Below are positions 7,272 to 55,057 of a stretch of DNA of 64,000 bases, piece after piece. The position numbers were made by a program, and so were the translations under genes. Where the stretch lies: positions 132,541 through 196,540 of the IMG/VR virus record IMGVR_UViG_3300027733_000030. One strand, given 5' to 3'. The notes beneath the pieces were generated by a model. That model was not told the DNA's origin. It searched no databases and was given only the letters and a program-made list of their open reading frames with translations. Source of the stretch: a virus. Every line of letters begins with the position of its first letter. Position 1 is the first letter of the stretch.

Positions 7272-8717
7272 TTAAGATGTTTGAGATCGTATTCTTTTTA
7301 TTGGTTTTTGCATGTCAAAAGTAAAGCTTTTATTAACATAGTCGATATGGAATATAGTACCTTTAGGTACGTTGCTATGCACAATTGTTTTCGCTAAAGG
7401 TGTTTCTATAACATCTCTTCTTACTTGAGCTATGCCACGAGCACCTTTGATGGTATCGATTCCACGTTCAATGAGACCATCAATCACGTTATCAGTATAG
7501 GAGACAGAGATTCCCTTTTTGGAGAGCTTATCCGCAATCACAGACATCTCTAATTCAGCTATCTTTTCGCAATCCTGTCGATTCAAGTGATTAAAAACAA
7601 CTATTTTATCTATTCTATTAATAAACTCTGGTCTGAAATATTTATCAATCGCTTGATGGGTATTTCTTTCCACGATAGATCTAACTGGTATCTCTGAAGT
7701 CTGACGCTCAAAGACAATGCTTCTAGCAAATCCTGTTCCAGTAGAAATTAAATTATCAACTGTTTTCTCATTGCCTAAATTGGTTGTCATGATAATGATT
7801 GTATTTCTAAAATCTACTGGTTCACCTTTATTATCTGTAACTATTCCCTCATCAAATATTCTCAAGAATGTATTCCAAATATCTTGATGTGCCTTTTCAA
7901 CTTCATCTATTAAAACAACTGAGTAAGGATTTTTCTTAACTTGATTAGTTAACTGCCCGCCTTCGTCGTGACCGATGTAACCTGGAGGAGAACCTAATAG
8001 CTTTTGGTTCTCATGCTTATGCTGGAACTCTCCACAGTCCATTCTTACTATCTGAGAGTCGCCACCAAACATATAATTATTCAGCATGTTTGCTAAGTGT
8101 GTTTTTCCAACACCGGAAGAACCCGCAAATAAGAATACTCCTAATGGTCTATTGGAATCATGCAAATCAGCCTGTGATCTAAATAAAGCTGAAACTATTT
8201 CTTCTATTGCCTGATCCTGACCTATCACATTTGATTTCAAGAATCCCTCTAATCCTAAAAACTTTTGTTTTGGAATCTTTTTATTCTTTGGAATAACCTC
8301 TTTGACTGTTTTTCTTTTAACATTTCTTTGGGCTTCTTGTAAAAATTTCTTTACTTCATTAAGATCATAATCTTCATCCTCAGGAGAAATCTCTAATGGG
8401 GCAGTCGAATAAGCGATGCTCACCCAGTAATCGATATCTAAACCAGGATTAAGCATAACACATCCTGCGTAGATTGCTTCGAGAGCTCTTTCTGCGGCTG
8501 TACGAGACATTGCGTTTAACGAAGACGCAACATCAGTATTTAAATTAAAAACTACATACTGTAAAACTTGCTTGCGAAGATCTTTGCTTTTTTTATGTTT
8601 AATGACAAATGCTTCTACATCTTCAGTGGGAATGATTTTAAATTTTACGTTAGCGTGCAACTCGGGTACAAAGATTTGGTATATCTGCATTAGCAACTTC
8701 TTTCTTTTATCTTGCAC
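7272..8717 (-). CDS. Clp/Hsp100-family ATPase with a single (D2-type) AAA+ module
   Basis: Walker A GSSGVGKT, Clp signature LLGSPPGYIGHDEGGQLT, Walker B VVLIDEVEKAH, FRPEFINRID, GARG; no D1 module. Confidence 0.85.
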   Translation of the reverse strand: MQDKRKKLLMQIYQIFVPELHANVKFKIIPTEDVEAFVIKHKKSKDLRKQVLQYVVFNLNTDVASSLNAMSRTAAERALEAIYAGCVMLNPGLDIDYWVSIAYSTAPLEISPEDEDYDLNEVKKFLQEAQRNVKRKTVKEVIPKNKKIPKQKFLGLEGFLKSNVIGQDQAIEEIVSALFRSQADLHDSNRPLGVFLFAGSSGVGKTHLANMLNNYMFGGDSQIVRMDCGEFQHKHENQKLLGSPPGYIGHDEGGQLTNQVKKNPYSVVLIDEVEKAHQDIWNTFLRIFDEGIVTDNKGEPVDFRNTIIIMTTNLGNEKTVDNLISTGTGFARSIVFERQTSEIPVRSIVERNTHQAIDKYFRPEFINRIDKIVVFNHLNRQDCEKIAELEMSVIADKLSKKGISVSYTDNVIDGLIERGIDTIKGARGIAQVRRDVIETPLAKTIVHSNVPKGTIFHIDYVNKSFTFDMQKPIKRIRSQTS

Positions 8718-9068: not shown

Positions 9069-9386
9069 TTGAAAGGTTATTACCAGGTGGAATACCCCCA
9101 GCATAACGAAACAAATTCTATTCCTAATAAAACACCAAAACCAGTGGACATCAAAGAAGTGAATCGCGCATTAATAGTCTTACGTGAAAACTCAATCTCA
9201 ATGCTCGACTTAATCGAAAAAGATCTTTATGATTTTTATTCAACGGATGTAGAAGTTATCAAGTTTGTTGATAAAGAACTTATGAAAAAAATTGTTCAAT
9301 TCAAGCAAGATGTCAAGAACATTGTTGTATACTCTAAGAACCTGCAGACGATGCATGAAGAACAAGGAAGATTATTCTATGACTGA
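9069..9386 (+). CDS. Hypothetical protein (start uncertain)
   Basis: 105-aa ORF overlapping the recA start. Confidence 0.55.
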   Translation: MKGYYQVEYPQHNETNSIPNKTPKPVDIKEVNRALIVLRENSISMLDLIEKDLYDFYSTDVEVIKFVDKELMKKIVQFKQDVKNIVVYSKNLQTMHEEQGRLFYD

Positions 9387-10404
9387 TGAATTCGATATGG
9401 AGACTGGCGAGATTCTTATTCCCGCAGCTAAAAAAGTTATTGATAAAGAAGAATCAAAAGTATTAGAACTCGCAATCGCACAACTTCAACGTCAATACGG
9501 AGCTGGATCAGTCGTTAGACTCGGCTCAACTAATATCAAACCATGGGACTCAATCTCCACTGGAGCACTTACTTTGGATAGTGCACTTGGAATTGGTGGT
9601 TTCCCGCGCGGGCGCGTAGTAGAAATCTATGGACCTGAGTCATCAGGTAAGTCTACTCTCGCTCTAGCAACAGTAGCCAAGGCCCAGCAGATGGGCCTCA
9701 CGTGCGCCTACATCGACGCTGAGCATGCTTTAGACCCAGTCTACATGCAAGCCGTAGGAATCGATCTAGACAACCTTCTACTGGCTCAACCTGATTATGG
9801 CGAGCAAGGCTTCGACATTGCTGACAGACTCCTGCGCACAGGGGAAATTGGCGTCATCGTCATTGACTCAGTTGCAGCATTAGTTCCTAAAGCTGAGCTC
9901 GATGGCGAAATGGAACAAGCTCACATGGGCTTGCAGGCCCGTATGATGGCTAAAGCTATGCGTAAGCTTACTGGACTCGCTGCCCAGCACAACACTCTTA
10001 TTATATTCATTAACCAGCTCCGCAACAAAATTGGAATCATGTTTGGTAACCCAGAGACTACTCCTGGTGGAATGTCATTGAAGTTCTATGCTTCAGTCCG
10101 AATTGACGTCCGCAAAAAAGAAGATCTTAAGGACAAGGCCGGAAATCCAGTTGGCGTCAAAGTCAAAGCTAAGGTTATTAAGAATAAGATGGCACCCCCA
10201 ATGAAAATCGTAGAGTTCGACATCATCTATGCTCAGGGTATCGACGAGTACGGATGTATCTTTGACATCGGAATCGACAAGGGTATCTTTACCCAAAAGG
10301 GCGCATGGGTCTACTATAATGGCGAGAACTTTGCCCAAGGTAGAGATAACGCTATTGAGAAGTTAAAGGCTTCTCCTGATATTGTAGGTGTGATCAAAGG
10401 CTAA
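9379..10404 (+). CDS. recA: RecA recombinase
   Basis: GPESSGKST Walker A, YIDAEHALDP, IDSVAAL, QARMM, IFINQLR, GNPETTPGG, LKFYASVR; ATG at 9379 after AGGAAG is preferred over 9292. Confidence 0.97.
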   Translation: MTDEFDMETGEILIPAAKKVIDKEESKVLELAIAQLQRQYGAGSVVRLGSTNIKPWDSISTGALTLDSALGIGGFPRGRVVEIYGPESSGKSTLALATVAKAQQMGLTCAYIDAEHALDPVYMQAVGIDLDNLLLAQPDYGEQGFDIADRLLRTGEIGVIVIDSVAALVPKAELDGEMEQAHMGLQARMMAKAMRKLTGLAAQHNTLIIFINQLRNKIGIMFGNPETTPGGMSLKFYASVRIDVRKKEDLKDKAGNPVGVKVKAKVIKNKMAPPMKIVEFDIIYAQGIDEYGCIFDIGIDKGIFTQKGAWVYYNGENFAQGRDNAIEKLKASPDIVGVIKG

Positions 10405-36753: not shown

Positions 36754-36887
36754 AACTAGGGCAGAGGTAGGTTTGGAAGAGACCTCCATGCAGTAGCTAA
36801 CGTCAAGTGAAGTGGCCCTACTAAGACGTGACAGTCGGAGAGACGACATCGGGGCGTTAGCTCAGTTGGTTAGAGCAAGGCACTCAT

Positions 36888-37602
36888 CGATAATTTTCAT
36901 GTGTTATACTATAAGCATGAAAAGTATAGTCAGATATGTAAACGATTATAGAGTCATATATTTACCTGACCATCTTAATGCTATTACTCATGGCAATTGG
37001 ATGGGCTGGATATATGAGCATATTGTTGTCGCTGAAAAAATGATTGGTAGACAACTTCGACATAATGAAGTTGTTCATCACTTAGATTTTAATAGATCTA
37101 ATAATAGAACTACTAATCTTATTGTTTTAGAAAGATCACAACATGCCCGTTTGCATGCATGGCTAGACGCAGGTGCCCCTGGTTGGCAACAGCCAGGTGA
37201 GAATCGGGTGAATTCAGGGAAATCTAAGTTAACTAAATCTATACTTTGCAAAGTGTGTTCTATCCAATTGCAAGGTTATCAAGATAAATACTGCTCTCAT
37301 AGTTGTGCTCAACAAGCATCTCGTAAAGTTCCTCGACCTTCTGTCGAGGAACTTGAACAAGATATATGTAGCATGACTTGGGAATCCATTGCTAGAAAAT
37401 ATGGAGTCACTTCAGGCTCTATTCGAAAATGGGCTCGCAAGTATCAGTTAATATGACAATCCTGAGCCAAGCCAAAGGTACACCTTTGGAAGGTGCAGAG
37501 ACTACTGGAGAAGTATAGTCTTCTTAATAACCAGTTACAGCTCCCGACATCCCTCTGGGATGATGATATAGTCCGCGGAGTTATGAAAATAACACAAACG
37601 TG
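36888..37602 (+). mobile_element. Group I self-splicing intron (715 nt) inserted 3' of the CAT anticodon
   Basis: 5' exon ends in U and intron ends in G; core motifs P GAATTCAGGGAAA, Q AATCCTGAGCC, R GGTGCAGAGACT, S GATATAGTCC; P3 TCGGGTG/CTCCCGA. Confidence 0.9.
36917..37456 (+). CDS. Intron-encoded HNH homing endonuclease with C-terminal Zn finger and HTH
   Basis: YEH...VHHLDFNRSNN...NL...H; CKVC...CSHSC; ATG at 36917 lies 7 nt after TGTTATACT (leaderless-type promoter). Confidence 0.88.
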   Translation: MKSIVRYVNDYRVIYLPDHLNAITHGNWMGWIYEHIVVAEKMIGRQLRHNEVVHHLDFNRSNNRTTNLIVLERSQHARLHAWLDAGAPGWQQPGENRVNSGKSKLTKSILCKVCSIQLQGYQDKYCSHSCAQQASRKVPRPSVEELEQDICSMTWESIARKYGVTSGSIRKWARKYQLI

Positions 37603-43025: not shown

Positions 43026-45005
43026 ATGAGTAATGTTAACTATTCTTTTACAGATCAAGATAGCAATGGAAATATAGTATTTAGATCAACTGTTAATTCA
43101 TTTGGCCTGGATCATGTTACTGATAAAGATCTTACTTCTTTTTATACGAAGTTTTCATCCAATGCTTATCTTGATACTGGCCTACTACCAGTAGATGGTT
43201 CTGGTCTTTTGGCCATTAGATCAGCTGGTAATCATACCCAAATTGCCTATCAGCATAAGCCTGGCATGTACTACATTAACTGGGGTAGATATGAAAGAGA
43301 TGCTGAAGCAAAAAAGTACTATGTTGCTCAGCCTTATAGAATAGTTATTGCTGATCTTCTCAATGATAACATTCTAGGAGCTAGAACATTCTATTCTCCT
43401 ATTCCCATTACCTATCCTCAAACTCCTTTATATCATATCAATGTTCCCAACATTAACTGCAAAGGTTATCGGGGAAATGCTGTAGGTTGGATTTGTTTAT
43501 ATCATACAGAAGACATTTCTCAGTATCCATTCAATGAGAAGCTCGCTAAAATTCTTGATCGTTGTTCAGGAACTGAAGCTTATAATGACAATAATATGAG
43601 TGAGACCGATGGTCCTCGTTTTTATCGTGATAATAATAAGCCGGAGCATCTTACTAATCCACAGGCTTGGGAAGATTATTCAGATAAAAATGGATACGAA
43701 TGGACTCTTGATCCTGAAGTATGGATTCCTATCTTAGTCCAAGACATTGATCATCAGGATCAGCATTACGCTGGTGGCCAACCACTTACTTTCGTTGACG
43801 CCTTGTTTGGCAATTACCAAGCATACTATACAGATTCACTTATTCCAAAGCCTATTAATGCTATCTCCAGAGATGATCTTACTTTAGATCCCACTTCTGT
43901 ATTTAGATGGTTTAAGCAGTCATATAATGCGTCATCTGAAACTAATGCAACTATTGATACTTTCAATTCTAGTACAACTGTTCGTGAAGCTTTGTCTCAA
44001 GCTGCTCCCGCATTTGTTGCTAATCAAGACGAAGACGAAGAAGAGGATGAAGACGATGATGAAGAAACTCATATGTGTCAACAATGTGAATCTTGGTATC
44101 CTCCAGATGACGTTGTTGAAGTTTATAATCATGAATTAATTTGCAATTCATGTATCTCAAATTCATATACATTTGTCAATCATATTGACAATTATGTAGA
44201 CGATGATCATGAAGAGTTATACTACGATGAAACTCTTGCTCGTCATTATTATCTGCCCGACTGGCCTTACCATATCAGTTGCCCTACCTGTGATCATCTA
44301 CATATCTACGATCCAGGTATGGCATTTAATAAAGAAAATCTAAACATCTGGCATTCTAATAGTTCTTTTGCTCCAGATCGTTGCACTGAATGTATTGATA
44401 AATACATTTATGTATCTGAAGGTATAGCTTATAATTCATGCAAGTGCTCAAACTGTGATACAAATGTTCCCAATTTGGCTACTTCAATTTTTTCTGTTTA
44501 TTATCGCACCGACGAAGAAGGATTGCAACGCCCTCTTTGCACTACATGCGCTTTAAGAATGAAGCTTATAAATAAACCTCTCAATATTGATTTAACTAAT
44601 AAAATTGAGTGGAACCATTCTGAACAGACTGTTGAAGAATCTATTCATCTATGTATTTGTGGTGTTGAAAATGACACATTTCTTAATTTAGATTCTCTCA
44701 AAATTTCTCATCCTTCATTTTTATTCACTGCAAAAAGTACAACTGCAGACATCATTAATGCTCATCCAACATTAGTTACAAATCCAACTGGAATTGATTG
44801 GGATGACAATAATGAAGTTTTTATCTATGACGTATCTGTTGATAAGTTATGCTCAACTTGTTGGTCACAATATTCTCAGGATGCTGGGTATTATTATAAC
44901 CAAATTAAACCTAATGTTGTAGATCTTTTTCAAAAACTACATGATAACAATCAAAGCTTCGAAACCATTTCTGGATTGCACATTCAGAAAGCTGAAATAT
45001 TTTAG
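43026..45005 (+). CDS. Prokaryotic E2-like (family D/PRTRC-B-like) domain fused to an acidic linker and a Cys-rich multi-Zn-finger region
   Basis: PYRIVI...LYHINVPNINC...GWICL (Cys 43494); DEDEEEDEDDDEE; multiple CxxC. Confidence 0.7.
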   Translation: MSNVNYSFTDQDSNGNIVFRSTVNSFGLDHVTDKDLTSFYTKFSSNAYLDTGLLPVDGSGLLAIRSAGNHTQIAYQHKPGMYYINWGRYERDAEAKKYYVAQPYRIVIADLLNDNILGARTFYSPIPITYPQTPLYHINVPNINCKGYRGNAVGWICLYHTEDISQYPFNEKLAKILDRCSGTEAYNDNNMSETDGPRFYRDNNKPEHLTNPQAWEDYSDKNGYEWTLDPEVWIPILVQDIDHQDQHYAGGQPLTFVDALFGNYQAYYTDSLIPKPINAISRDDLTLDPTSVFRWFKQSYNASSETNATIDTFNSSTTVREALSQAAPAFVANQDEDEEEDEDDDEETHMCQQCESWYPPDDVVEVYNHELICNSCISNSYTFVNHIDNYVDDDHEELYYDETLARHYYLPDWPYHISCPTCDHLHIYDPGMAFNKENLNIWHSNSSFAPDRCTECIDKYIYVSEGIAYNSCKCSNCDTNVPNLATSIFSVYYRTDEEGLQRPLCTTCALRMKLINKPLNIDLTNKIEWNHSEQTVEESIHLCICGVENDTFLNLDSLKISHPSFLFTAKSTTADIINAHPTLVTNPTGIDWDDNNEVFIYDVSVDKLCSTCWSQYSQDAGYYYNQIKPNVVDLFQKLHDNNQSFETISGLHIQKAEIF

Positions 45006-45013
45006 GAGAATAT

Positions 45014-46663
45014 ATGTCTGAAGAAATTGAACAAGAACTCACTCTTGACGATTTAGATTACTACTGGATGTCTAATGGTCTTCCAGTATTCATGGCTAAT
45101 CGTGAAGATATCTGTGAAGTTGTAGAATATTTTGGTTTTAATATTTATTATCTTCTTGGTAATATTGAAAAAACAACAACAACTACTCCCCCATCAAATA
45201 CAACTTACAAAGCTGCTAATACTCCTGCTCCCGCTGCAGTTAAAGTAACAACATCAAACATGCAATTGTTTAAGGTTGTCAATAACTTTGTTGGTCGTAC
45301 TGTTACTCCTTCTGCTGAATCATTTGATCCTCAGTTTATTGCGGTGCAAGAAGAAGCTACTTATAATATGCCACCCATTCCTCACGTTCTTGTTGATAAA
45401 CTCGATCAGTTCTTTAGACTTGTCGATGCACAACATGGATCTGAATCTATTGTCATGCTTACCTATGATCTTGAAAAAGAAGGATCTGAAGGTTGGGGCA
45501 TTCTTGTTCCAGATCAAACTAATACTTCAGTCCATTGCAACTATGATCCCAATAGTATTGCTGAAGTTAAGCCTGATAATGTTATGATTGTTGGCTCTGT
45601 TCACAGCCATCCTGGAATGAGCGCCTATGCTTCTGGAACAGACCATAAAGATCAAGCTGATTTCGATGGTATTCACATTACATTTGGCTGGCAGAAGTCT
45701 GTTCAAAATGGAGCGACTCAATACTATGCTGAAATGCAGATGTCAGGACAAGCATATAAACTTGATATCGAGGATGTCTTTGAAGATTATGTTGTCGAAA
45801 AAGCACCAGATCCAGAAGTTGTAGCTTGGACCGGTAAAGTAAAAAAAGCACTCCCCCCCAGTACGGTGGGGGGATCACTCACTCCAGTAAATGGAACCCA
45901 TCAGGCGGGTACGCAGGCTGGTACAGCTGATCACAGAAAGAAGCAAGCATTATCTTTTAGATGTATTCCAGAATTCAATCTTGAAGACAATGCCATTATT
46001 GTAGCAGAATTAGATGATGAACAAAACAAACTCTTTACATGCCCATCTTGCCAAACATCTCTTGACGAGTATGATATTTTTGACGGTAGCTGCTGTGTTT
46101 GTGACGTACCCATTGCTGAAAAGAACACAAACGTAGCAACTCTTATCGACAATCTTGCATACTATTGCACTAGAAATGGTATTGATAAGAAGGCTCCCGC
46201 TTACTTATGGTGTAGAGATGCTAATAATTTAGATTTCATTATTCGATTAACTCCCACAACACTGCTCAATTCTATCTTTACAGATCCTCATCTAGATGAT
46301 TCTTATATGATTTTAGAAAATACTTTAGAATCCGTAGTTGATGATGACATCTTCACCGTATGCTGCGGAAGAACAATGCAAGACGCTGAACAACTTTGCT
46401 ATTGCAAAGTGCAGATTCTTACATCTGATTTTGTAGATTTCGAAGAAGAAACAAAAACAATTCAAGTCTATGATCTGTCTACCGGATGTGCTAATTGTGA
46501 ATTCTTTTATGATACACACTGTCCGGAATATATAAAACTTATAGAAAAATTTGTAAGTAATAGGTCTACAGATATTTATTCATTTGAAGAAGCAATTTCT
46601 ATTCAAGAATGTAATAGCTATCTGCCCTATAGTGCAAATATATATAACCCCTTGGAGGCGTAA
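45014..46663 (+). CDS. JAB/MPN+ metallo-isopeptidase with C-terminal Cys-rich region
   Basis: E...GSVHSHPGMSAYASGTD (HSH at 45602-45610), GIHITFG. Confidence 0.88.
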   Translation: MSEEIEQELTLDDLDYYWMSNGLPVFMANREDICEVVEYFGFNIYYLLGNIEKTTTTTPPSNTTYKAANTPAPAAVKVTTSNMQLFKVVNNFVGRTVTPSAESFDPQFIAVQEEATYNMPPIPHVLVDKLDQFFRLVDAQHGSESIVMLTYDLEKEGSEGWGILVPDQTNTSVHCNYDPNSIAEVKPDNVMIVGSVHSHPGMSAYASGTDHKDQADFDGIHITFGWQKSVQNGATQYYAEMQMSGQAYKLDIEDVFEDYVVEKAPDPEVVAWTGKVKKALPPSTVGGSLTPVNGTHQAGTQAGTADHRKKQALSFRCIPEFNLEDNAIIVAELDDEQNKLFTCPSCQTSLDEYDIFDGSCCVCDVPIAEKNTNVATLIDNLAYYCTRNGIDKKAPAYLWCRDANNLDFIIRLTPTTLLNSIFTDPHLDDSYMILENTLESVVDDDIFTVCCGRTMQDAEQLCYCKVQILTSDFVDFEEETKTIQVYDLSTGCANCEFFYDTHCPEYIKLIEKFVSNRSTDIYSFEEAISIQECNSYLPYSANIYNPLEA

Positions 46664-47421
46664 TGAGCACTGAAAGACGTTTTATTTTAGTTGGAGCAGG
46701 GGGCATTGGCACTTGGCTTGCAGCAGGGCTTGTCAGACTTCTTGAATGGAAATTCCCAGGATCCGCTCTCATCATTGTTGATGGTGATACCTTTGAGGAA
46801 AAGAATAAAGAACGTCAAGACTTCATTAAGCTTGGAAATAAAGCTGTAGTTAAAGCTGCGGAACTTGTTCCTCAGTTCCCTAACACTACAATTATTCCAT
46901 TAGCTAAATGGGTTGTCGATGATAACTTTGCTGGCGTTACTGATGACGACAGTCCTAAGATAACTGCTTCGCAACTCATTCGTGAAAACGATGTTGTCTT
47001 TGCTGTTGTTGATAACTTTGCTGCTAGAAAAATTATCTTCGATGCCGCTTCTAAATTAAATAATGTTGATGTTTTTACTGGAGGTAATGATGATGACCTT
47101 TTTGGTTCTATTTATCATTATCAAAAACGAGATGGCGTAGAAATTACTGCTCATCCCGCTGAATATCATCCAGAATACAACAATCCGCCAGATAAGAATC
47201 CTGGTGAATTGTCTTGTCAAGATCGCGCCCAGATTGAAGGAGGCACTCAACTACTCGCCACTAATATGGCAGTAGCGTCCTTTATTCTTGGTCGTGTCCA
47301 AAAAACAATAGTGTCCAATCAAAGCCCTGAAGAAACAGAAATTTTCTTTGATCTTGGACTCGGTAAATCTGAACCATACAACAGAATGCATTCTTCTGTA
47401 GAAGAACCAATTACAGTATAA
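46663..47421 (+). CDS. ThiF/E1-like ubiquitin-activating enzyme
   Basis: VGAGGIG, IVDGD.FEEKN..RQ, KA, VDNFAAR, catalytic-type SC (47215), Q...TN. Confidence 0.92.
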   Translation: MSTERRFILVGAGGIGTWLAAGLVRLLEWKFPGSALIIVDGDTFEEKNKERQDFIKLGNKAVVKAAELVPQFPNTTIIPLAKWVVDDNFAGVTDDDSPKITASQLIRENDVVFAVVDNFAARKIIFDAASKLNNVDVFTGGNDDDLFGSIYHYQKRDGVEITAHPAEYHPEYNNPPDKNPGELSCQDRAQIEGGTQLLATNMAVASFILGRVQKTIVSNQSPEETEIFFDLGLGKSEPYNRMHSSVEEPITV

Positions 47422-47435
47422 TAGGAGAAATTAAA

Positions 47436-47690
47436 ATGGAAAATACAAGTTCATCGGCAGCTCAGCCGAATCGCGCTAATGGAATGGCTAATCTCCGCTA
47501 TGGAGTTTACAATCAGCCGAGCAACATTGCTGGCAAGTCCATCAATGAAGTTCGTCAACAGTTCGCTAAGATCTGGGGCATTCCCAATGATGCTATTGCC
47601 TACTGTGGCAAGGACAAACTTGATGAGAACGCTGTTATTCAGCCCGGCCAGAACATTGAGTTCCACCGCCGTGCAGGCGAAAAGGGCTGA
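47436..47690 (+). CDS. Ubiquitin-like (beta-grasp) protein, PRTRC protein C-like, ending in Gly
   Basis: 84 aa; ...IQPGQNIEFHRRAGEKG*; AGGAG RBS. Confidence 0.8.
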   Translation: MENTSSSAAQPNRANGMANLRYGVYNQPSNIAGKSINEVRQQFAKIWGIPNDAIAYCGKDKLDENAVIQPGQNIEFHRRAGEKG

Positions 47691-47703: not shown

Positions 47704-47763
47704 GGGGGAGGATCTGAATACATTTTTCATTAGATAAATGTATCGATCCTCCCCCTATTTTTT
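47704..47763 (+). terminator. Intrinsic terminator after the Ubl gene
   Basis: GGGGGAGGATC/GATCCTCCCCC-TATTTTTT. Confidence 0.75.
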
Positions 47764-47797
47764 GAAAAGGCAACACCTAGTACGTTTGGTGATATAT

Positions 47798-49411
47798 ATG
47801 TTATTTGATTCTATTAAACTCAACTATCCAAATATTTGGATTAAAGATTCTGACTCTTCCAGAATTGTAGATGTTATTACTTCTACAATTGATAGAGATT
47901 ATTATATTATTGATTTTCTATCTGGATTTTCTAAGTACTGCGAAGGCCAATGGAAGAGCGTATTAGTTCCTAATCCTTTGGCTGAAATGACTGGTGGACC
48001 TGAACTAGTGGTCACCTATGATCCATCGATTGCCATGTCCTATCTTTTAGAAAATGCTATCACATTTACTAAGCCAGCTACTTACTTCATTAATGTTATT
48101 GGTGATCTTAATGCGGCAATCATGCCCATGTCTCCATACATTGCCCACTTTAAATCATCATATCGTAAAGCTTTCTGGAATGATGATCTTTCATTAATGC
48201 CTCTTCAATTAATTTTCTTGAGTTCACAAAATGTTTCTGAAGAATATGCTCAGTACTTTACTGTTATAGAAGATCTTATTCCTGGTCCTTCTGAACTTCA
48301 CTCTATTGCTACGCATATCAATGCTTCTGCACATGACCGTCTCATTGAACAAGATAACATTAAAGAACTTGTTAATGCTGGAATCGGTCTTACTGAATCT
48401 CAATTCATTGACCTTTGTTTAACATCTGTTGTTAATACTGGACAACTTAATCCTAAGTTTGTTTATGATCAAAAGATGTCAACTATCAAAAAGAATGGCA
48501 TTCTTGAAATCATTAAGCCTACAATGAGCTTTGCAGATATTGGTGGTCTTGATAATATCAAAGACATTATTCGTAGAACAGCAGTTCTATGGAATGATCC
48601 CCAGCGCGCAAAGTCTTTTGGTATTACCCCTATTCGCAGAATGCTTATGGTTGGAATTCCCGGCACTGGTAAGTCAGCAATCTGTCAAGCCACTGCTAAT
48701 GAACTTGGACTAGACTTGGCTCGCACTGGTATTAGCCAAGTTATGAATTCTTTTATTGGTCAATCAGAAGCTAACATGCGTGCTGTCTTTAAGCAAATCA
48801 AACTCATGTCCCCACTATGTGTGTGGATTGACGAGTTTGGTCGCGATCTTTCTGGTGGATCAAGTTCTTCCCATGTAGACGGTGGAACCACTGATCGTGT
48901 TCATGGTGAATTCCTTACTGGTCTTCAAGAGCTTCCTGAAGAAACATTCCTGCTATGTGCTGCTAATCAACTTGAAGCTTTGCGCCCTGAGATGTTGCGC
49001 GCAGATCGTTTCGATAAGATTATGTTTGTTGGTCTTCCTTCTTTTGAAGAACGCAAACATATCTTTAATATTCATTTGAGTAAGATTGATACTGACCACG
49101 ATTATAATTATGATGCGCTAGCCGACGCTTCTGTATATATGACTGGTGCAGAAATTGTTTCTTTGATCCGTGAAACAAAATTTTATGTAACTTCTGAATC
49201 TTTCAGACCAATTGAAACTAAAGATGTTTTACATTTTATTCCTCGTACTAAGAATACTATTTGGCTCAAGCACAATGACATGGTTATGTCCATGTATCAG
49301 TATGCCTTTGAGCAGTGGGATTGGGCCTCGACATCTCAGATGGAAGATGCTAGAATGATACTAGGTAAAAAGACTCCTGTAAAGTCAGAATCCAAACTTA
49401 TTTGGAACTAA
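47798..49411 (+). CDS. AAA+ ATPase (Ycf46/Cdc48-like: degenerate N-module plus active C-module)
   Basis: IGGLDNIK, GIPGTGKS, CVWIDE, SRH AANQ...PEMLRADRFD; ATG at 47798 because 47738 lies inside the terminator. Confidence 0.85.
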   Translation: MLFDSIKLNYPNIWIKDSDSSRIVDVITSTIDRDYYIIDFLSGFSKYCEGQWKSVLVPNPLAEMTGGPELVVTYDPSIAMSYLLENAITFTKPATYFINVIGDLNAAIMPMSPYIAHFKSSYRKAFWNDDLSLMPLQLIFLSSQNVSEEYAQYFTVIEDLIPGPSELHSIATHINASAHDRLIEQDNIKELVNAGIGLTESQFIDLCLTSVVNTGQLNPKFVYDQKMSTIKKNGILEIIKPTMSFADIGGLDNIKDIIRRTAVLWNDPQRAKSFGITPIRRMLMVGIPGTGKSAICQATANELGLDLARTGISQVMNSFIGQSEANMRAVFKQIKLMSPLCVWIDEFGRDLSGGSSSSHVDGGTTDRVHGEFLTGLQELPEETFLLCAANQLEALRPEMLRADRFDKIMFVGLPSFEERKHIFNIHLSKIDTDHDYNYDALADASVYMTGAEIVSLIRETKFYVTSESFRPIETKDVLHFIPRTKNTIWLKHNDMVMSMYQYAFEQWDWASTSQMEDARMILGKKTPVKSESKLIWN

Positions 49412-49425
49412 TAGATAGGAATATT

Positions 49426-50052
49426 ATGAGCGATACATTCGATAATGCTGAAGAATTTCTTTCTTCTTTGGAAGGAATAAAGGATCCAGTTAAAACTGAT
49501 ACTAAAGACTACCAGCAAGATCTTTATAAAAAGTGGTTTAGATCAAAGACACAGAGTGGCTTCTTAGCTATTCGTCCTTGGAATGAAGCACTTAAAATGA
49601 AGATCGATATTGGTAAGACTTCTTCTGAAGGAAAACTTCAAAGCAGTACTGCAGTCTTTGTTGACACTATCGACTTTGCTGCGTACCTTCGTTCAATTGC
49701 AAATCAAACAGCTGTTATAAACTATCCTGCCAATGAAAGAATGGGCGTTCCCACTAATGAAGGTTTTGTTTCATATGGTGGAACGACCATTGATGGCAAG
49801 CCTATTTCTCGAATCTTTAAGGCTCATTACTGGCAAACATCGGATGCAGTGGATGCTACTTCATTTGTTTGGAAGTGTGGACACTTTGCTGCGCGTAAGT
49901 CTGACAGTGGTGCATTTATTCCTGATATGAAGACTCCTCTGTCTGTTGATCAGATTAAAGTTAGTCGTCAAGATATTTGCTCTATCTCATACTTAATGGA
50001 TCTTTCTATGGTATCATATGTTACCAACAATCAAGACTGGTATGAACAATGA
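49426..50052 (+). CDS. Hypothetical protein
   Basis: ATG at 49426 after AGGA. Confidence 0.7.
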   Translation: MSDTFDNAEEFLSSLEGIKDPVKTDTKDYQQDLYKKWFRSKTQSGFLAIRPWNEALKMKIDIGKTSSEGKLQSSTAVFVDTIDFAAYLRSIANQTAVINYPANERMGVPTNEGFVSYGGTTIDGKPISRIFKAHYWQTSDAVDATSFVWKCGHFAARKSDSGAFIPDMKTPLSVDQIKVSRQDICSISYLMDLSMVSYVTNNQDWYEQ

Positions 50053-50438
50053 CAGAAGAAAATATTCCATCACTTGACTCAGTTACTGCAGAGTTTATTA
50101 CTAATCTTTTTCAAGAAGTAATGACAGGAATTCATGCTCAAGTTGAGCAAAGACTTCAGGTAGTAGAAAAATCTATTGAATCTATTGAAAAACAAATAGC
50201 TTCTCTTATTCTCGGTTACGGAGAGCAGGCTGTATTTATGGAAGCCTTAGTTGCTCAAATAGCATATTCCACAGATGAAGCTCGTGCTGCTTTCCATAAC
50301 GATGTTTCCAAGTCTCGCAGAGAAATGCTTGAGGTTATGCAACATGCATCAAAAGGAATCCTGGCTGACCAAGATCAAAATCTTGCCACAGCCGTTGCAG
50401 ATATGGTTGACTCAGAGCTGTCTAATACAGACTCCTGA
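50049..50438 (+). CDS. Coiled-coil hypothetical protein
   Basis: ATGA overlap. Confidence 0.65.
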   Translation: MTEENIPSLDSVTAEFITNLFQEVMTGIHAQVEQRLQVVEKSIESIEKQIASLILGYGEQAVFMEALVAQIAYSTDEARAAFHNDVSKSRREMLEVMQHASKGILADQDQNLATAVADMVDSELSNTDS

Positions 50439-50629
50439 TTTATCTTGTTTATTACTAGTTGATAATTCTACTTTAGAATTACTTCATAATTTATCTTATC
50501 TATCTAGCATATATCCTATTGTTCAATCTATATATCCTGATGTTACATCTTTATTTATTTCTAGTACGTCTTTTCAAGAATTTATAAAGACAGGAAAAAT
50601 AGAAGTCTATTCAGTTGAGGTAAATAATA

Positions 50630-51193
50630 ATGATCATAAACAAGTTCCAATCTTTGGAACATCTGAATGAAGTTTTTAATAAACTTTTTGATTCCGCATA
50701 TATTGCAAAGATTACTACCGATACAGTTGATGTTGTTGCAGCGAGTTTAGATGAATCTCGCAAACAATCCGTAGTATCTCTTTTAAACTTAAATATTAGT
50801 CCAGATATATATCAAGAAATATATATTTATTTAGGTTCTAAAACAGATTTTAAAAAAGAATATTATTCTAATATTCCAACTTCACTTTATGACAAGTATT
50901 ATAATGCTCTTCGTGATAATGGAGCTATACTTGCTGCAACGGGCGCTTATGTTCTTGTCAAAAAAATAAATCTTTCACAGTCTATTTTAGATCTTATCAA
51001 TGTCACGATAGATACTAATCAGGCATCTAAAATTATTTCTTCCCTTATTACTCAAGTTAATGACTTGCAAAAAGATGTCAAATATTATGCGGAATATGTT
51101 GAGTCATTAGAAAAGCAGGCTCAAGAACTTCTTGATCAAACTTCTAAAGCTAGAGAAGATTTGTACAATAAAACGATAACTACTTGGTATTAA
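50630..51193 (+). CDS. Hypothetical protein with C-terminal coiled coil
   Basis: GAGG RBS. Confidence 0.65.
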   Translation: MIINKFQSLEHLNEVFNKLFDSAYIAKITTDTVDVVAASLDESRKQSVVSLLNLNISPDIYQEIYIYLGSKTDFKKEYYSNIPTSLYDKYYNALRDNGAILAATGAYVLVKKINLSQSILDLINVTIDTNQASKIISSLITQVNDLQKDVKYYAEYVESLEKQAQELLDQTSKAREDLYNKTITTWY

Positions 51194-51194
51194 T

Positions 51195-52379
51195 ATGTCT
51201 GATCTAAATAAACCCATTAGTCTTGAAGACCTTCTCAAGCAGCTTGTTGCTCCAGGTGAATTTTCTAATACACTAGCAAAAACCTATAAAAAATTAAAAA
51301 TTAAAACCCCATTAGATTTATTTGAATCTAATACTGTACTTAACTTAGCTAATACATCGGAGTCAGTGGTGCACGATCTTAATATTATACCTAATAATAA
51401 TCATTCTTCAGAGAGTGAATCTAATAATGTTCCTGTTCTTTTTGATTTAGATACTTCTCAATACTATTTCGATTTACCAAATCCAGGTACAGATTATACT
51501 ACTCGTTTTTGGCTTAATCCAATTCATGCAGCAAAGTATCCTGGACCAACTGGTTGCGAAGAAGGGGAATTTGTTTATGACTATTTTGCTTCTGGCGAAG
51601 TATACTTAAATATTCCTGAAAATATTTATATTACTTCAGTTGCTAAAACATTTTTTACTGTTTACAAGAATCATATAGTTTCTCCTACGGGACAACTTAA
51701 GCAACATCCTGATTGTGCCGGATTTGCTCCCAGTAACCATGTAGTTTCCTGCCTTTCCCCTTCAGTAGATCCATACAACTCTACTCCAGTCTATGCTTGG
51801 AAATTCAGCATTGATACCTTTTTCAATACTGTATCATCTTCTGAAGTTAAAGATAAGAAGAAAGTTATTTCGCCTGCTCCTTGTCAGTATTTGACATATC
51901 ATGCCAATGATACTAAAATTACTTCTACGGATTACGCATTTGCTAATGTTCCTCCAAACATTGCTTTATGTTCTTCTCCTGTTCTTTCTTCTAAGTCATC
52001 AATGACTTTATGTTCATCTTTTCATTTAGGCAGAATTGATAAGCACTGCCCTCAGTATGTTGCTCTTTCTACTATTATTAAGACAACTACAGTTACTCCT
52101 TTGAATAGTGAAAACATCATAAATATTCAAATGCGCTATAGTACAACTTTAAGTGGAGATCATTCTTTTGTCATACAGAACATGACAGATAATGCTACGT
52201 TAACTACTTTAAACTATGATAAAGACTCTAACTACGATGAAGTTCTTGTAGAAGCTAACAATATCTTTGAAGAGTTTATATCGTGCTACGATGCGCATAC
52301 GCTTGAAGATAAAAACATAGAACAGGAAAAAATTTCTGTTAACAAAGTTAGCTATATACAAACTCTTATTGGAGCTTAA
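51195..52379 (+). CDS. Cys/His-containing hypothetical protein
   Basis: 394 aa; scattered conserved-looking Cys. Confidence 0.65.
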   Translation: MSDLNKPISLEDLLKQLVAPGEFSNTLAKTYKKLKIKTPLDLFESNTVLNLANTSESVVHDLNIIPNNNHSSESESNNVPVLFDLDTSQYYFDLPNPGTDYTTRFWLNPIHAAKYPGPTGCEEGEFVYDYFASGEVYLNIPENIYITSVAKTFFTVYKNHIVSPTGQLKQHPDCAGFAPSNHVVSCLSPSVDPYNSTPVYAWKFSIDTFFNTVSSSEVKDKKKVISPAPCQYLTYHANDTKITSTDYAFANVPPNIALCSSPVLSSKSSMTLCSSFHLGRIDKHCPQYVALSTIIKTTTVTPLNSENIINIQMRYSTTLSGDHSFVIQNMTDNATLTTLNYDKDSNYDEVLVEANNIFEEFISCYDAHTLEDKNIEQEKISVNKVSYIQTLIGA

Positions 52380-52382
52380 ATA

Positions 52383-53864
52383 ATGTCTTTATCTGGAAAA
52401 TTTACTAACATTGATGCTAGGGAAGCAACTAGTTCTTATCTTATTAATGTTAATTTAGATTCTGCTTCAACCGTAGTTCATTCTGCATTAACAACTTCTT
52501 ATTACAACTATCCTAACTATCCTCTTTCTTTAGCTCAATCTTCTACTGATGATCAAGTTGTTAATGATTTTCTTGGTGGATATTGGTATGATACTAAACA
52601 AGTCCCTACATTATTGACAGTAGATGTTTCTTCTATCTTTTCTGGAAAAACTGAAGATGTTGTTTATGCCCATAAGGAAATGATTTATCCAAAAATAGAT
52701 CCATCTTTACTTCCAATAGCTACTCGTTACATTACTCCTGAAGGCTATTATTTTATAGAGCGTCCTCCTTTTCAAGTTGAAGTAGACTTATATATCACTA
52801 AGAATAGGTATTCTGATAATCGCAAAAAAATGAATCCATATAAAGTTTGGATTCCTTGGACTCTTACAATCTTGAATCCTCATGATTTGAGTGATGTAAA
52901 AATTATGTTTTCTCATAAATCTCTTTCTTCCATGGAAGATGTTTATTCTCCTTCATTTCTTCCTAACTCTTACATGGATGGTAGAATTTGTTTTGCCGGT
53001 AGTCTCAGTCAACTTTCTGTTGAAAACATAGATAAAAAAGATATTCGTTATATCTATTCTATGGTTTTTAATGAATTCATGAATGGTGGATGGAATTTAG
53101 ATTTGACTCCAAATCTTTATAGATTCTTTCAACAGTATCAACCTTCAGAAGATTATCCTATTTTATCTAAGTTTCTCAATCCTGATAAAGTTCTTTTGAA
53201 GAAAAAATATCCAAAGATGACTACTCGGCAGTTAGAGAATTTTAATTACGACGCATCTACTCGTTCATATGGTTCTGTATTTAATTATTTCTTTACTCAA
53301 TTATCTACATTTAGTCTTGATGAAACTTTGGAATTTTATAAAGAAATTTCAGAATTTCCCACCAATGTTCGTTATCATAAATGTACTTATACTTTTGAAG
53401 AACTTGTTAATATAATAAAAAAAAATCTTAAGATAACTGCTGTCTCTTCTTACGAAAACTTTTCTTCAACTGTTCAAGATATTCTTACAAAAAATTCTAA
53501 ATTAGATCAATCTTTCTTTTTATATGAATCTTTTCCTGTCATTGTTTATAATATTGATTCTACAAATTTAAGTAGTTCTTTTAGGTTAAGACATTATTTT
53601 GATCTTTCATCTCTTCATGAAGTATTAGAACACTATATAAATAATCCATCAAAGGATAAAATTTATGTACTCGATTATGCTACCAGTAAATTTTCAGTTG
53701 TAGATATTCAAAAAAATGTTACCACTAATTATTATGATTTTATTAAAAGTAAAATTGGTGCTCCTTATGAATCTTTTGAATCTTACATTAGTTTCAAGAA
53801 TTATCTTTTCGCAAAGACCGCCTATACTTCTTCTAACTCTACTGTTCAGGAGTCCCTTGTCTAA
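52383..53864 (+). CDS. Second prokaryotic E2-like protein
   Basis: FIERPP, WIPWTL, FLPNSYMDGRICF (Cys 52989). Confidence 0.7.
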   Translation: MSLSGKFTNIDAREATSSYLINVNLDSASTVVHSALTTSYYNYPNYPLSLAQSSTDDQVVNDFLGGYWYDTKQVPTLLTVDVSSIFSGKTEDVVYAHKEMIYPKIDPSLLPIATRYITPEGYYFIERPPFQVEVDLYITKNRYSDNRKKMNPYKVWIPWTLTILNPHDLSDVKIMFSHKSLSSMEDVYSPSFLPNSYMDGRICFAGSLSQLSVENIDKKDIRYIYSMVFNEFMNGGWNLDLTPNLYRFFQQYQPSEDYPILSKFLNPDKVLLKKKYPKMTTRQLENFNYDASTRSYGSVFNYFFTQLSTFSLDETLEFYKEISEFPTNVRYHKCTYTFEELVNIIKKNLKITAVSSYENFSSTVQDILTKNSKLDQSFFLYESFPVIVYNIDSTNLSSSFRLRHYFDLSSLHEVLEHYINNPSKDKIYVLDYATSKFSVVDIQKNVTTNYYDFIKSKIGAPYESFESYISFKNYLFAKTAYTSSNSTVQESLV

Positions 53865-55057
53865 TGTCTATTTCTATACTAACTTCAAATACTAATAATA
53901 TTTCTGTTAAAGTTAATTATAATGAAGATTCTTCTTATATAAGTTCTTTTGTTTACAATAATTATTCCAATGATTTACAACAAATTACCGGAGAACTTGA
54001 TCGAGTTGTTCCAGTAACCGATTTTGTTTCTTCATTTACAAAGAATAATTATATAGTAAAAGATACTGGCATTATGCCCCCAGGACTCCTATATGCTACT
54101 AAAAAATATTTAGTCTTTGAAAAACCGCCTTGCTATGAAAATGTTTCTATTATTTACAAGCAGGTTGATGGCATAGACTATGATTCTGATGAAGAAAATA
54201 TTTATCGCATTCCAGTTCCTTGGCAGTTATACATTGTTAAATATCATGAAGTAAGGAATGAAAATCAGATTGAGTATTATACTACTGATGTTCGCATGTA
54301 CTTTATGAAGACTTCTTTAATGCACCCTGATCAAGAAATGTTCATGGTTCCAATTCCCAATTTCTATTCTAACGGCGATTTGTGTCGTCCATTCTTTTCA
54401 GATATGGATGATATAGAAAAGTATTCTAAAGATTTTGCTGGAGTTATTGAGTCCGCTTATGATTGGGTATGGAACTCTGGAACTAATTTAGATTTAACTG
54501 AAACTGTTGCGAAGTACTATTCTTTTTATCAAGATAAACCAGAGAATACTATTTTACAAAAATTTACCGTACCTTTTACTCGTGAAATAAATAAAGAAAA
54601 TTATTACATAGGTGATAATTATGTTGCAGCTTTATTTAAAGCTTGGGAATCAATTGATCTTCATGAAATTAGTAATATAAACTGGGTAAAAAATTCTCAA
54701 AATCCTCGTTTTCATTCAGACTTCAGTAATGCTCGAACTAACTTGATTGGTGAATATTTACAAACCATAGATCAAAGCAGTCAAATGCACAGAAATTTAG
54801 ATTGCTGCGATTCATGCAGCGAGTATGATGATGAGCAAGATGAATATACGAATAGTGAAGATTGTGAGTGTGAATGTCACATTCCCGAAACTTCCATAGA
54901 TTATGATGATTTCTATGCTTTTGCTGGAGTTTGGCCACCTAAGGGTTTTACTTACCTGGAAGCCTTAGCATCTTTTATGGAAGAAGATTCTCGAATTAGT
55001 CATTATTCATTGCTTCGCCATATCCGAAATATTGAAGATCAAGTGCTAATGTCTTGA
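53864..55057 (+). CDS. Third prokaryotic E2-like protein with C-terminal Cys cluster
   Basis: VFEKPP, IPVPWQL, PIPNFYSNGDLCR (Cys 54383); CCDSC...CECECH. Confidence 0.7.
   Translation: MSISILTSNTNNISVKVNYNEDSSYISSFVYNNYSNDLQQITGELDRVVPVTDFVSSFTKNNYIVKDTGIMPPGLLYATKKYLVFEKPPCYENVSIIYKQVDGIDYDSDEENIYRIPVPWQLYIVKYHEVRNENQIEYYTTDVRMYFMKTSLMHPDQEMFMVPIPNFYSNGDLCRPFFSDMDDIEKYSKDFAGVIESAYDWVWNSGTNLDLTETVAKYYSFYQDKPENTILQKFTVPFTREINKENYYIGDNYVAALFKAWESIDLHEISNINWVKNSQNPRFHSDFSNARTNLIGEYLQTIDQSSQMHRNLDCCDSCSEYDDEQDEYTNSEDCECECHIPETSIDYDDFYAFAGVWPPKGFTYLEALASFMEEDSRISHYSLLRHIRNIEDQVLMS

What the first reader, a model, noticed from the sequence alone, without database searches (positions are those of the whole stretch)
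52383..55057. Two further E2 paralogs 5 kb downstream: an expanded E2 repertoire with no recognisable E3
Seen: 52383-53864 and 53864-55057 each carry F-x-E-[RK]-PP, [IV]PW and P-N-x-Y-x-[DN]-G-x-[IL]-C motifs (Cys codons at 52989 and 54383), matching the E2 at 43026 (Cys 43494), followed by unrelated C-terminal regions. Inference: three E2s fed by one E1 and one Ubl could each carry their own substrate-recognition domain, giving a modular, E3-free targeting system, more than the single E2 typical of described prokaryotic operons.
Basis: partly seen in the sequence, partly recalled or inferred. Interest (0 to 1): 0.7.

Follow-up and report, generated by a model that had tools for sequence, protein, structure and literature searches.

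The report
Two extra phage E2-like enzymes
An uncultured phage of about 200 kb carries, 5 kb downstream of its own ubiquitin-like tagging genes, two adjacent fast-evolving genes that are very divergent ubiquitin-carrier (E2) type enzymes with the active-site cysteine kept; I found no description of this layout in phages, and their biochemistry is untested.

Summary
ORFs 52383-53864 (493 aa) and 53864-55057 (397 aa) are real, translationally coupled paralogs (BLASTP E 8e-11). In 34 and 30 non-redundant orthologs, at only 21-27% median identity, both keep E-x-P-P, P-W, N-x7-C and W-N-x-D.

Evidence that they are E2-like:
- An AlphaFold model of the core (pLDDT 90) matches almost only UBC/E2-superfamily chains in the PDB. 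Z is low (about 4.4) but the matches are nearly exclusive.
- Profile-profile comparison with bona fide Prok-E2_D / PRTRC protein B gives E 2e-5 and 8e-5, with the cysteine in register.
- In an unrelated phage lineage a member of the same family sits directly beside JAB-E1-Ubl.

In 80 of 84 loci from relatives that span the block, the order E2-like/JAB/E1/Ubl/AAA/…/two paralogs is the same. The other four contigs end before the pair.

So they are E2-superfamily enzymes, below every curated family threshold. Not shown: charging by the phage E1, target selection by the flanking regions, or absence of an E3. The link of the 43026 gene to them is only marginal (E 0.003-0.075).

The scan found the same pair earlier on another genome (e1-5802467), with a similar verdict.

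The parts
52383..53864 (+). dom1 (P0001, 493 aa): divergent UBC/E2-like enzyme. The core is about residues 90-335 (nt 52650-53387). Asn195 codon 52965-52967, Cys203 codon 52989-52991. Extra N-terminal (1-90) and C-terminal (335-493) parts pack together in the model.
   Evidence: ORF; motifs; family of 114 hits by word-index search and 784 clusters by exhaustive profile search; models with pLDDT 83 and 90; UBC-only fold matches; hhalign to Prok-E2_D E 2.3e-5
53864..55057 (+). dom2 (P0002, 397 aa): paralog of dom1. The UBC-like core is about residues 58-320 (nt 54035-54823). Asn166 codon 54359-54361, Cys174 codon 54383-54385. Its start overlaps the dom1 stop (TAATG).
   Evidence: hhalign of the dom2 lineage to Prok-E2_D E 7.6e-5; sub-threshold Prok-E2_D hits fall on dom2 orthologs
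43026..45005 (+). P0003 (659 aa): highly conserved N-terminal 320 aa, candidate core E2 (LPN, invariant C145, C157 and C180), plus a C-terminal array of CxxC zinc ribbons.
   Evidence: 445 homologs, the 120 listed at 58-99% identity; marginal collinear profile matches to dom1/dom2 and to the L099 E2; language-model neighbours carry Prok-E2_D; no fold was obtained
45014..46663 (+). JAB/JAMM peptidase (549 aa) with an HSH…S..D motif
   Evidence: Pfam Prok-JAB 23.7 bits, just under the cut-off; weak PRTRC_A hit; sequence
46663..47421 (+). Minimal ThiF-type E1 (252 aa), GxGGxG motif, invariant Cys185
   Evidence: Pfam ThiF E 1e-11; PRTRC_ThiF E 3.4e-7; invariant columns
47436..47690 (+). Ubl candidate (84 aa) ending …HRRAGEKG-stop
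   Evidence: C-terminus …GEKG in 24 of 25 orthologs, HRRAGEKG in 23; the related Ubl in L099 has a weak ThiS hit
47738..49411 (+). AAA+ ATPase (557 aa), Cdc48/PAN-like module
   Evidence: Pfam AAA E 7e-23; NCBIfam CDC48 and PAN partial hits
49402..52379 (+). Four unknown genes between the ATPase and dom1: g216 (49402-50052, conserved at 0.61 median identity), g129 (50049-50438, no family; weak sub-threshold hits only), g187 (50630-51193) and g394 (51195-52379). The last two evolve fast (0.22-0.23).
   Evidence: No family; conservation; synteny

Best explanation
The two genes are a tandem, translationally coupled pair of very divergent E2 (UBC-fold) enzymes. They are distant relatives of Prok-E2_D / PRTRC protein B and are fixed in the core genome of an uncultured clade of phages of about 170-215 kb.

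Shown here:
- A UBC-like fold with the order alpha1, four strands, P-N, seven residues, Cys, crossover helix.
- An invariant Asn and Cys at the spacing of the eukaryotic HPN…C active site.
- Homology to bona fide Prok-E2_D.
- Constant company of one ThiF-type E1 with an invariant Cys, one small protein ending in Gly, a JAB peptidase and an AAA+ ATPase.

Inferred mechanism:
1. The E1 adenylates the Ubl's C-terminal Gly and passes it as a thioester to Cys203 (dom1) and Cys174 (dom2), as well as to the conserved upstream E2 candidate.
2. Asn195/Asn166 stabilise the oxyanion during transfer to a target lysine.
3. The fast-evolving regions around each core choose different targets, probably host proteins.
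4. The JAB peptidase reverses the tag, and the ATPase may act on tagged proteins.
For: Fold:
- The domain model has pLDDT 89.8.
- Only 51 of 48,161 PDB representatives reach Z>=2. Of the 50 listed, 49 are E2, UEV, UFC1, Atg3, FANCL, Cap2, CdnG-E2 or BubB. The best is Z 4.4, rmsd 4.0 over 123 residues.
- All 50 top rows of the second look are E2s.

Sequence:
- hhalign against eight bona fide Prok-E2_D / PRTRC_B proteins (117-127 bits on PF14460, about 129 bits on TIGR03737) gives E 2.3e-5 for the dom1 family and 7.6e-5 for the dom2 lineage. About 123 columns align, with the N…C motif in register.
- The active-site-like residues are invariant at 21-27% overall identity.

Context:
- 80 of the 84 related loci that span the block, plus the window, show P0003-JAB-E1-Ubl-AAA-…-dom1-dom2. 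The other four contigs end before the pair.
- Four 97-100% complete genomes have exactly two copies.
- In a different phage lineage (E1 32% identical, multisubunit RNAP genes) an 875-aa protein of this family sits directly upstream of JAB-E1-Ubl. hhalign gives Prob 92%, E 8e-7.

Partners: E1 Cys185 is invariant and the Ubl ends in Gly-stop.

Coupling: the dom1 stop overlaps or nearly touches the dom2 start in 18 of 23 loci.
Against: - No curated model reaches its cut-off on either protein. Pfam, PHROGs and NCBIfam give nothing. The best Prok-E2_D scores on orthologs are 12-14.5 bits against a cut-off of 25.
- Structural Z is at most 4.6, and Foldseek finds nothing significant in the PDB.
- The His of HPN is absent. 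The His that is invariant after the Cys in Prok-E2_D is replaced by N.D.
- Charging by the phage E1 is untested, and the genes lie 4.7 kb from the Ubl gene.
- Gene order is conserved across the whole clade, so co-occurrence there is not independent evidence of a functional link.
- dom1 and dom2 evolve three times faster than E1 and Ubl, which is unexpected for partners that must dock on them.
Confidence: 0.6

Rival explanations
1. dom1 and dom2 do not take the Ubl from the E1. They act downstream of the conserved E2 candidate (P0003) as a cysteine-relay, E3-like pair, or as an E2/E2 heterodimer. This would provide the missing ligase or specificity layer.
For: P0003's N-terminal domain is conserved like E1 and Ubl (listed homologs 58-99% identical; E1 0.71, Ubl 0.66). 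dom1 and dom2 evolve fast like specificity factors. dom1 and dom2 are translationally coupled. No E3 family is detected in the block.
Against: In the L099 lineage a dom-family protein is the only E2-like gene next to JAB-E1-Ubl, so the family can fill the E2 slot itself. Both paralogs keep the complete Asn/Cys site. No interaction was tested.
Confidence: 0.17
2. They are E2-like proteins aimed at host ubiquitin-like systems, for example decoys or hijackers of host Bil-, CBASS-Cap2- or PRTRC-type conjugation. They would work independently of the phage Ubl.
For: Evolution is fast with a fixed active site, as expected in an arms race. Host Ubl conjugation is a known anti-phage defence (abstracts listed; Bil text). 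The closest family, PRTRC_B, is found in Bacteroidia genomes, 6 of 301 sampled. Bacteroidota are the likely hosts, but only from MAG binning.
Against: The phage carries its own complete E1/Ubl/JAB set in the same gene string in every relative. The family occupies the E2 slot of a phage cassette in L099. Nothing here points to a specific host partner.
Confidence: 0.1
3. They have a UBC-like fold but are not transferases. They would be non-catalytic Ubl-binding (UEV-like) or structural proteins, or the resemblance of the fold is coincidental.
For: Z scores are low, and no curated family or Foldseek match is significant.
Against: UEV proteins lack the cysteine. Here Cys and the Asn eight residues before it are invariant in 64 orthologs at 21-27% identity. 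Profile homology to a Cys-bearing E2 family is in register. The fold hits are almost exclusively UBC superfamily.
Confidence: 0.08

Closest known systems
Prok-E2_D (Pfam PF14460) = PRTRC system protein B (NCBIfam TIGR03737), the E2-like protein of ParB-related/ThiF-related cassettes on plasmids and integrative elements. I found no experimental study of it.
   Same: The UBC-like core is homologous at profile level, E 2e-5 and 8e-5. The motif N-x-Y-x-D-G-x-[IV]-C is nearly identical. The partners are a ThiF-type E1 and a JAB peptidase whose best NCBIfam hits are PRTRC_ThiF and PRTRC_A.
   Different: Scores are far below the family cut-offs. The proteins are two to three times longer, with extra N- and C-terminal parts. 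The His that is invariant after the Cys in Prok-E2_D is replaced by W-N-x-D. There are two tandem copies plus a third E2 candidate per genome. They are phage-encoded and sit next to an AAA+ ATPase. No ParB-like gene was seen in the block.
Eukaryotic UBC/E2 enzymes (UBE2S, UbcH5, Ubc13 and others)
   Same: The same fold order, and the Asn-to-Cys spacing of 8 as in HPN…C. About 120-128 of about 150 residues superpose at about 4 Å.
   Different: Identity is only 7-16% and there is no His in HPN. ERPP and PW motifs replace the YPxxPP region. There are long helical insertions after the crossover helix. Z is only about 4.
Bacterial Bil (BilABCD) anti-phage ubiquitination, also CBASS Cap2 and Bub
   Same: A Ubl ending in Gly, an E1, a Cys-bearing E2 and a JAB deubiquitinase encoded together. 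Cap2, CdnG-E2 and BubB appear among the fold matches at Z 2.4-3.4.
   Different: Those systems are host defences with one E2 per operon. Here the genes are a core module of a phage, with three E2-like genes and an AAA+ ATPase. No sequence-level relation to BilB was tested.

Membership tests
UBC/E2 superfamily (fold level) | alpha/beta UBC fold: N-terminal helix, four-stranded antiparallel sheet, active-site loop, crossover helix | tested here: met
   Secondary-structure order in the model. 49 of the 50 listed chains with Z>=2 are UBC superfamily, best Z 4.4, rmsd 4.0 over 123 residues. All 50 rows of the second look are E2s. The absolute Z is low, so this rests on exclusivity and coverage.
UBC/E2 superfamily (fold level) | Catalytic Cys about 8 residues after a conserved Asn (HPN…C) | tested here: met
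   N195…C203 and N166…C174 are invariant in 34 and 30 orthologs. The His of HPN is absent (Leu or Pro-Ile before P-N).
UBC/E2 superfamily (fold level) | Forms a thioester with a Ubl delivered by an E1 | not testable with these tools
   The complex predictor was unavailable. Needs biochemistry.
Pfam Prok-E2_D (PF14460) / NCBIfam PRTRC_B (TIGR03737) | Score at or above the curated cut-off | tested here: not met
   No hit for P0001 or P0002 even at E 10. 3 of 75 family members hit weakly, best E 0.007. dom2 orthologs score 12-14.5 bits against a cut-off of 25. No PRTRC_B hit.
Pfam Prok-E2_D (PF14460) / NCBIfam PRTRC_B (TIGR03737) | Homology of the core with the Cys motif in register | tested here: met
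   hhalign against eight bona fide members: Prob 76%, E 2.3e-5 and Prob 62%, E 7.6e-5.
Pfam Prok-E2_D (PF14460) / NCBIfam PRTRC_B (TIGR03737) | Conserved His C-terminal to the catalytic Cys (F-S-H in the eight members aligned here; also noted for class 6d by Iyer et al. 2006, PMC1779556) | tested here: not met
   H195 is invariant in A6. The aligned segment in dom1/dom2 is W-N-x-D, with N and D invariant and no His.
Pfam Prok-E2_D (PF14460) / NCBIfam PRTRC_B (TIGR03737) | Encoded with a ThiF-type E1, a JAB peptidase and a small Ubl | tested here: met
   Same-strand gene string, 4.7 kb apart, in every related locus that spans the block. Directly adjacent in the L099 lineage.
UEV (catalytically dead E2 variants) | Loss of the active-site Cys | tested here: not met
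   The Cys is invariant in both paralog lineages.

The most novel reading that the evidence does not exclude
A bacterial virus runs its own ubiquitin-style host-takeover system. One E1 and one Ubl would feed three E2-type enzymes whose rapidly evolving flanks pick different host proteins. The tagged proteins would then be handed to the phage's Cdc48/PAN-like unfoldase and, in sister clades, to a phage-encoded proteasome-like peptidase. That would be a viral analogue of the ubiquitin-proteasome pathway inside bacteria.
Probability: 0.2. Interest if true: 0.85.

Novelty: new variant of a known kind. Interest (0 to 1): 0.6.

Why it matters
In what I read here, ubiquitin-like conjugation in bacteria is a host defence against phages (Bil, CBASS). 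I found no paper on a phage that carries its own complete kit. Here the kit is a fixed core module of a widespread uncultured phage clade: 784 protein clusters at 50% identity, with contigs from many metagenomes. It includes three E2-type genes, two of them among the fastest-evolving genes of the block.

If the two paralogs are charged by the phage E1, they would be a natural example of target choice built into E2s without a detected E3. They would also point to the proteins the phage needs to modify. In addition, the family gives a remote sequence and structure bridge between PRTRC protein B and eukaryotic E2s.

Tried and rejected
Searches that found nothing useful:
- Direct family searches on P0001, P0002 and P0003 found nothing useful: Pfam even at E 10 gave only a chance-level DUF7685 hit on P0003, PHROGs one weak unknown-function hit on P0003's C-terminal region, NCBIfam none.
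- A profile search of PDB sequences found no E2.
- Foldseek against the PDB gave nothing at E<=0.001 for either model. E2 rows appear only near E about 1.
- Cultured phages (INPHARED) gave no DNA or protein match for the block, P0001 or P0003. Only the ATPase has distant relatives.
- A search for short stand-alone relatives found only one fragment.
- Prokaryote genomes gave one hit, a 22-kb contig in a Cyclobacteriaceae MAG, probably a binned phage.
- hhalign of P0003 against Prok-E2_D gave no meaningful match. L099's E2 against Prok-E2_D gave only the Cys motif, E 0.3.
- The promoter/terminator scan found fewer promoter-like sites than in shuffles and no convincing + strand terminator inside the block. 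The operon limits are therefore undefined.

Proteasome idea: the proteasome-like gene seen in sister clades is not in the window, and it was not found in three relatives of the window's subclade that are 85-92% complete.

Tools not available: the window's whole genome, the atlas fold library, complex prediction (nothing was folded) and the look-up of sequencing runs.

BFVD: the two best hits (461 and 438 aa, uncultured Caudovirales, E 7e-11 and 6e-10) look like family members. A 621-aa hit (E 7.6e-5) could be a P0003-type protein, but I could not fetch it to check.
Full report
WHAT IS THERE

The window is part of a large phage genome. It has many short same-strand ORFs, six scattered tRNA genes and a group I intron. 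Related contigs are 170-216 kb, and some are complete with terminal repeats.

The two ORFs of the finding are intact. P0001 is 52383-53864 (493 aa). P0002 is 53864-55057 (397 aa). The stop of the first overlaps the start of the second in TAATG.

The two proteins are paralogs: BLASTP E 8e-11, 26% identity over about 178 residues. A domain HMM covers residues 91-333 of P0001 and 58-320 of P0002. The regions outside that core are unrelated between the two.

HOW WIDESPREAD AND HOW CONSTRAINED

- P0001 has 114 homologs in a word-indexed search. It has 784 clusters (at 50% identity) in an exhaustive profile search. All listed hits are unnamed metagenomic proteins of similar length.
- I fetched 84 loci of this phage clade that span the block: 41 through the protein and 43 through the E1. 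Many of these overlap on the same contigs.
- Every one of these loci, and the window, has the order P0003-like, JAB, E1, Ubl, AAA, g216, g129, (g187), (g394), dom1, dom2, SSB, UDG. Four contigs end before the pair is reached.
- Four 97-100% complete genomes contain exactly two family members, adjacent to each other.
- Median pairwise identity is 0.71 for E1, 0.66 for Ubl and 0.56 for AAA. It is only 0.21 for dom1 and 0.27 for dom2.
- Even so, P, E.PP, PW, N-x7-C and (W)N.D are invariant in 34 and 30 non-redundant orthologs.
- The dom1 stop and dom2 start overlap or lie within 10 nt in 18 of 23 loci.

These are therefore real, co-expressed genes with a strongly selected active-site-like constellation in a fast-changing scaffold.

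ARE THEY E2s?

Curated libraries say nothing directly. Three independent lines agree.

1. Fold.
- The full-length model (pLDDT 83) and a model of residues 88-335 alone (pLDDT 89.8) give the order helix, four strands, P-N, seven residues, Cys, crossover helix, further helices.
- Against 48,161 PDB representatives only 51 chains reach Z>=2. Of the 50 listed, 49 belong to the UBC superfamily: E2s, UEVs, UFC1, Atg3, FANCL, and the bacterial Cap2, CdnG-E2 and BubB.
- The best match is Z 4.4, rmsd 4.0 Å over 123 of about 150-164 residues.
- The second look at Foldseek's candidates lists 50 E2s and nothing else.
- The absolute Z is low and Foldseek is not significant. I rely on exclusivity and coverage, not on score.

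2. Profile homology.
- I collected eight bona fide Prok-E2_D proteins from Bacteroidia genomes. They score 117-127 bits on PF14460, and about 121-130 bits on PRTRC_B for the three tested, just under its strict cut-off.
- hhalign gives Prob 76%, E 2.3e-5 to the dom1 family and Prob 62%, E 7.6e-5 to the dom2 lineage. About 123 columns align.
- F-N-I-Y-E-D-G-R-V-C lies over P-N-x-Y-x-D-G-x-I-C.
- Sub-threshold Prok-E2_D hits in whole phage genomes and in a MAG fall on dom2 orthologs. Language-model neighbours of both P0001 and P0003 are viral clusters partly annotated Prok-E2_D.

3. Independent context.
- L099 comes from a different phage lineage. Its E1 is 32% identical, and it has multisubunit RNA polymerase genes and a second ThiF gene.
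- There an 875-aa protein whose N-terminus belongs to the dom family (Prob 92%, E 8e-7, Cys in register) lies directly upstream of JAB-E1-Ubl.
- So the family fills the E2 slot of a Ubl cassette outside the clade in which gene order is simply inherited.

WHAT THEY ARE NOT

They do not meet the cut-offs of Prok-E2_D or PRTRC_B. They also lack the His that is invariant after the Cys in those proteins; W-N-x-D stands there instead. They lack the His of the eukaryotic HPN. I therefore file them as a new, divergent branch of the E2 superfamily nearest to Prok-E2_D, not as members of that family.

THE THIRD 'E2'

- P0003's N-terminal 320 residues are highly conserved (58-99% identity among the 120 best of 445 homologs), with more than 80 invariant positions.
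- It has no BLAST similarity to P0001 and no match to Prok-E2_D.
- Three weak but collinear profile alignments put its D-T-G-L-L-P, P-Y-R-I-V-I and L-P-N segments over the corresponding dom segments: E 0.075, 0.0026 and 0.0058.
- Its position before JAB-E1-Ubl fits an E2, but I could not fold it.
- Its C-terminal half is an array of conserved CxxC zinc ribbons with no significant family. This is the main caveat to 'no E3'.

MECHANISM

Supported parts:
- The E1 is a 252-aa ThiF-type enzyme with an invariant Cys185.
- The 84-aa protein ends …GEKG directly before the stop in 24 of 25 orthologs, HRRAGEKG in 23.
- The JAB protein has the H-S-H…S..D motif.

Inferred parts: E1-to-E2 transfer onto Cys203 and Cys174, target choice by the variable flanks, and a role of the ATPase on tagged proteins. 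The rate contrast fits specificity factors facing changing targets: E1, Ubl and the P0003 core are slow, while dom1, dom2, g187 and g394 are fast. The same contrast equally fits the relay and anti-defence rivals.

A proteasome-like gene (PF00227, 26-30 bits, partial match) lies 2-4 kb after UDG in 26 loci of sister subclades. It is absent from the window, and it was not found in three relatives of its subclade. A phage proteasome is therefore not a fixed part of the system.

PRIOR KNOWLEDGE

- Iyer, Burroughs and Aravind (PMC1779556) predicted bacterial Ubl/JAB/E1/E2 operons, and only tail-assembly Ubl/JAB pairs in phages.
- The Bil preprint read here (10.1101/2023.09.26.559546) and the abstracts on Bil, CBASS and Bub describe host defence systems, with one E2 per Bil operon.
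- PRTRC appears in papers only as an annotation.
- I found no paper on phage-encoded multi-E2 cassettes.
- The scan itself met the same pair on a closely related genome (e1-5802463, e1-5802467), and a follow-up reached a similar verdict. New here are the test against bona fide Prok-E2_D, the L099 context and the clade-wide statistics.

VERDICT

This is a new, phage-borne variant of the E2 kind: well supported as an E2-type enzyme pair, with the link to the phage E1/Ubl plausible but unproven.

Noticed in passing
L099:5897-12111 (IMGVR_UViG_3300034152_000961); also L098: A different phage lineage carries a compact cassette next to multisubunit RNA polymerase beta/beta'-like genes. It holds an 875-aa dom-family E2-like protein, a JAB (488 aa), a ThiF E1 (234 aa), a 169-aa Ubl with a Rho_N-like N-terminus and a weak ThiS hit, and a second ThiF protein (305 aa).
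   Followed up: partly
L002:17065-17727, L004:17519-18181 and 24 further loci; not in the window: A 220-aa protein with a partial Proteasome-subunit match (PF00227, 26-30 bits) lies 2-4 kb after UDG in sister subclades. It is missing from the window's part of the block. It was not found in three relatives of the window's subclade that are 85-92% complete.
   Followed up: partly
window 43026-45005, residues about 345-659: The C-terminal half of P0003 is an array of conserved CxxC pairs (C351, C373/376, C419/422, C453/456 and others) with no significant family. It could be a built-in RING-like or other zinc module. The JAB protein also has a Cys-rich C-terminal half.
   Followed up: partly
window 49402-50052: The unknown 216-aa gene after the ATPase is as conserved as the Ubl and the E1 (median identity 0.61) and has no family. 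It is a candidate core component of the system.
   Followed up: no
L024/L070 and L026/L071 (IMGVR_UViG_3300042868_009074, 267,766 bp): One contig holds two diverged copies of the whole 13-gene block about 215 kb apart. This is probably two related phage genomes joined in assembly rather than a real duplication.
   Followed up: no
window 37089-37595: A group I intron (Rfam RF00028, 74 bits) overlaps the end of ORF 36812-37456. Six tRNA genes lie scattered between 25946 and 39947, including tRNA-Ile with anticodon TAT.
   Followed up: no
L040:4936-5187: One Ubl ortholog continues two residues past the conserved Gly (…GEKGNI). It would need trimming, presumably by the JAB peptidase. The others stop right after the Gly.
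   Followed up: no
window 7272-8717 (-) and 9292-10404 (+): A Clp-family AAA_2 ATPase (with a ClpB D2-small domain) and a full-length bacterial-type RecA (396 bits) are encoded in the first 10 kb of the window.
   Followed up: no
L003 (GCA_049314295.1, 193-kb contig) and L042 (Cyclobacteriaceae MAG, 22-kb contig): The only 'bacterial genome' records holding the family are MAG bins of Bacteroidota (Flavobacterium sp., Cyclobacteriaceae). This is a weak hint at the host phylum.
   Followed up: partly
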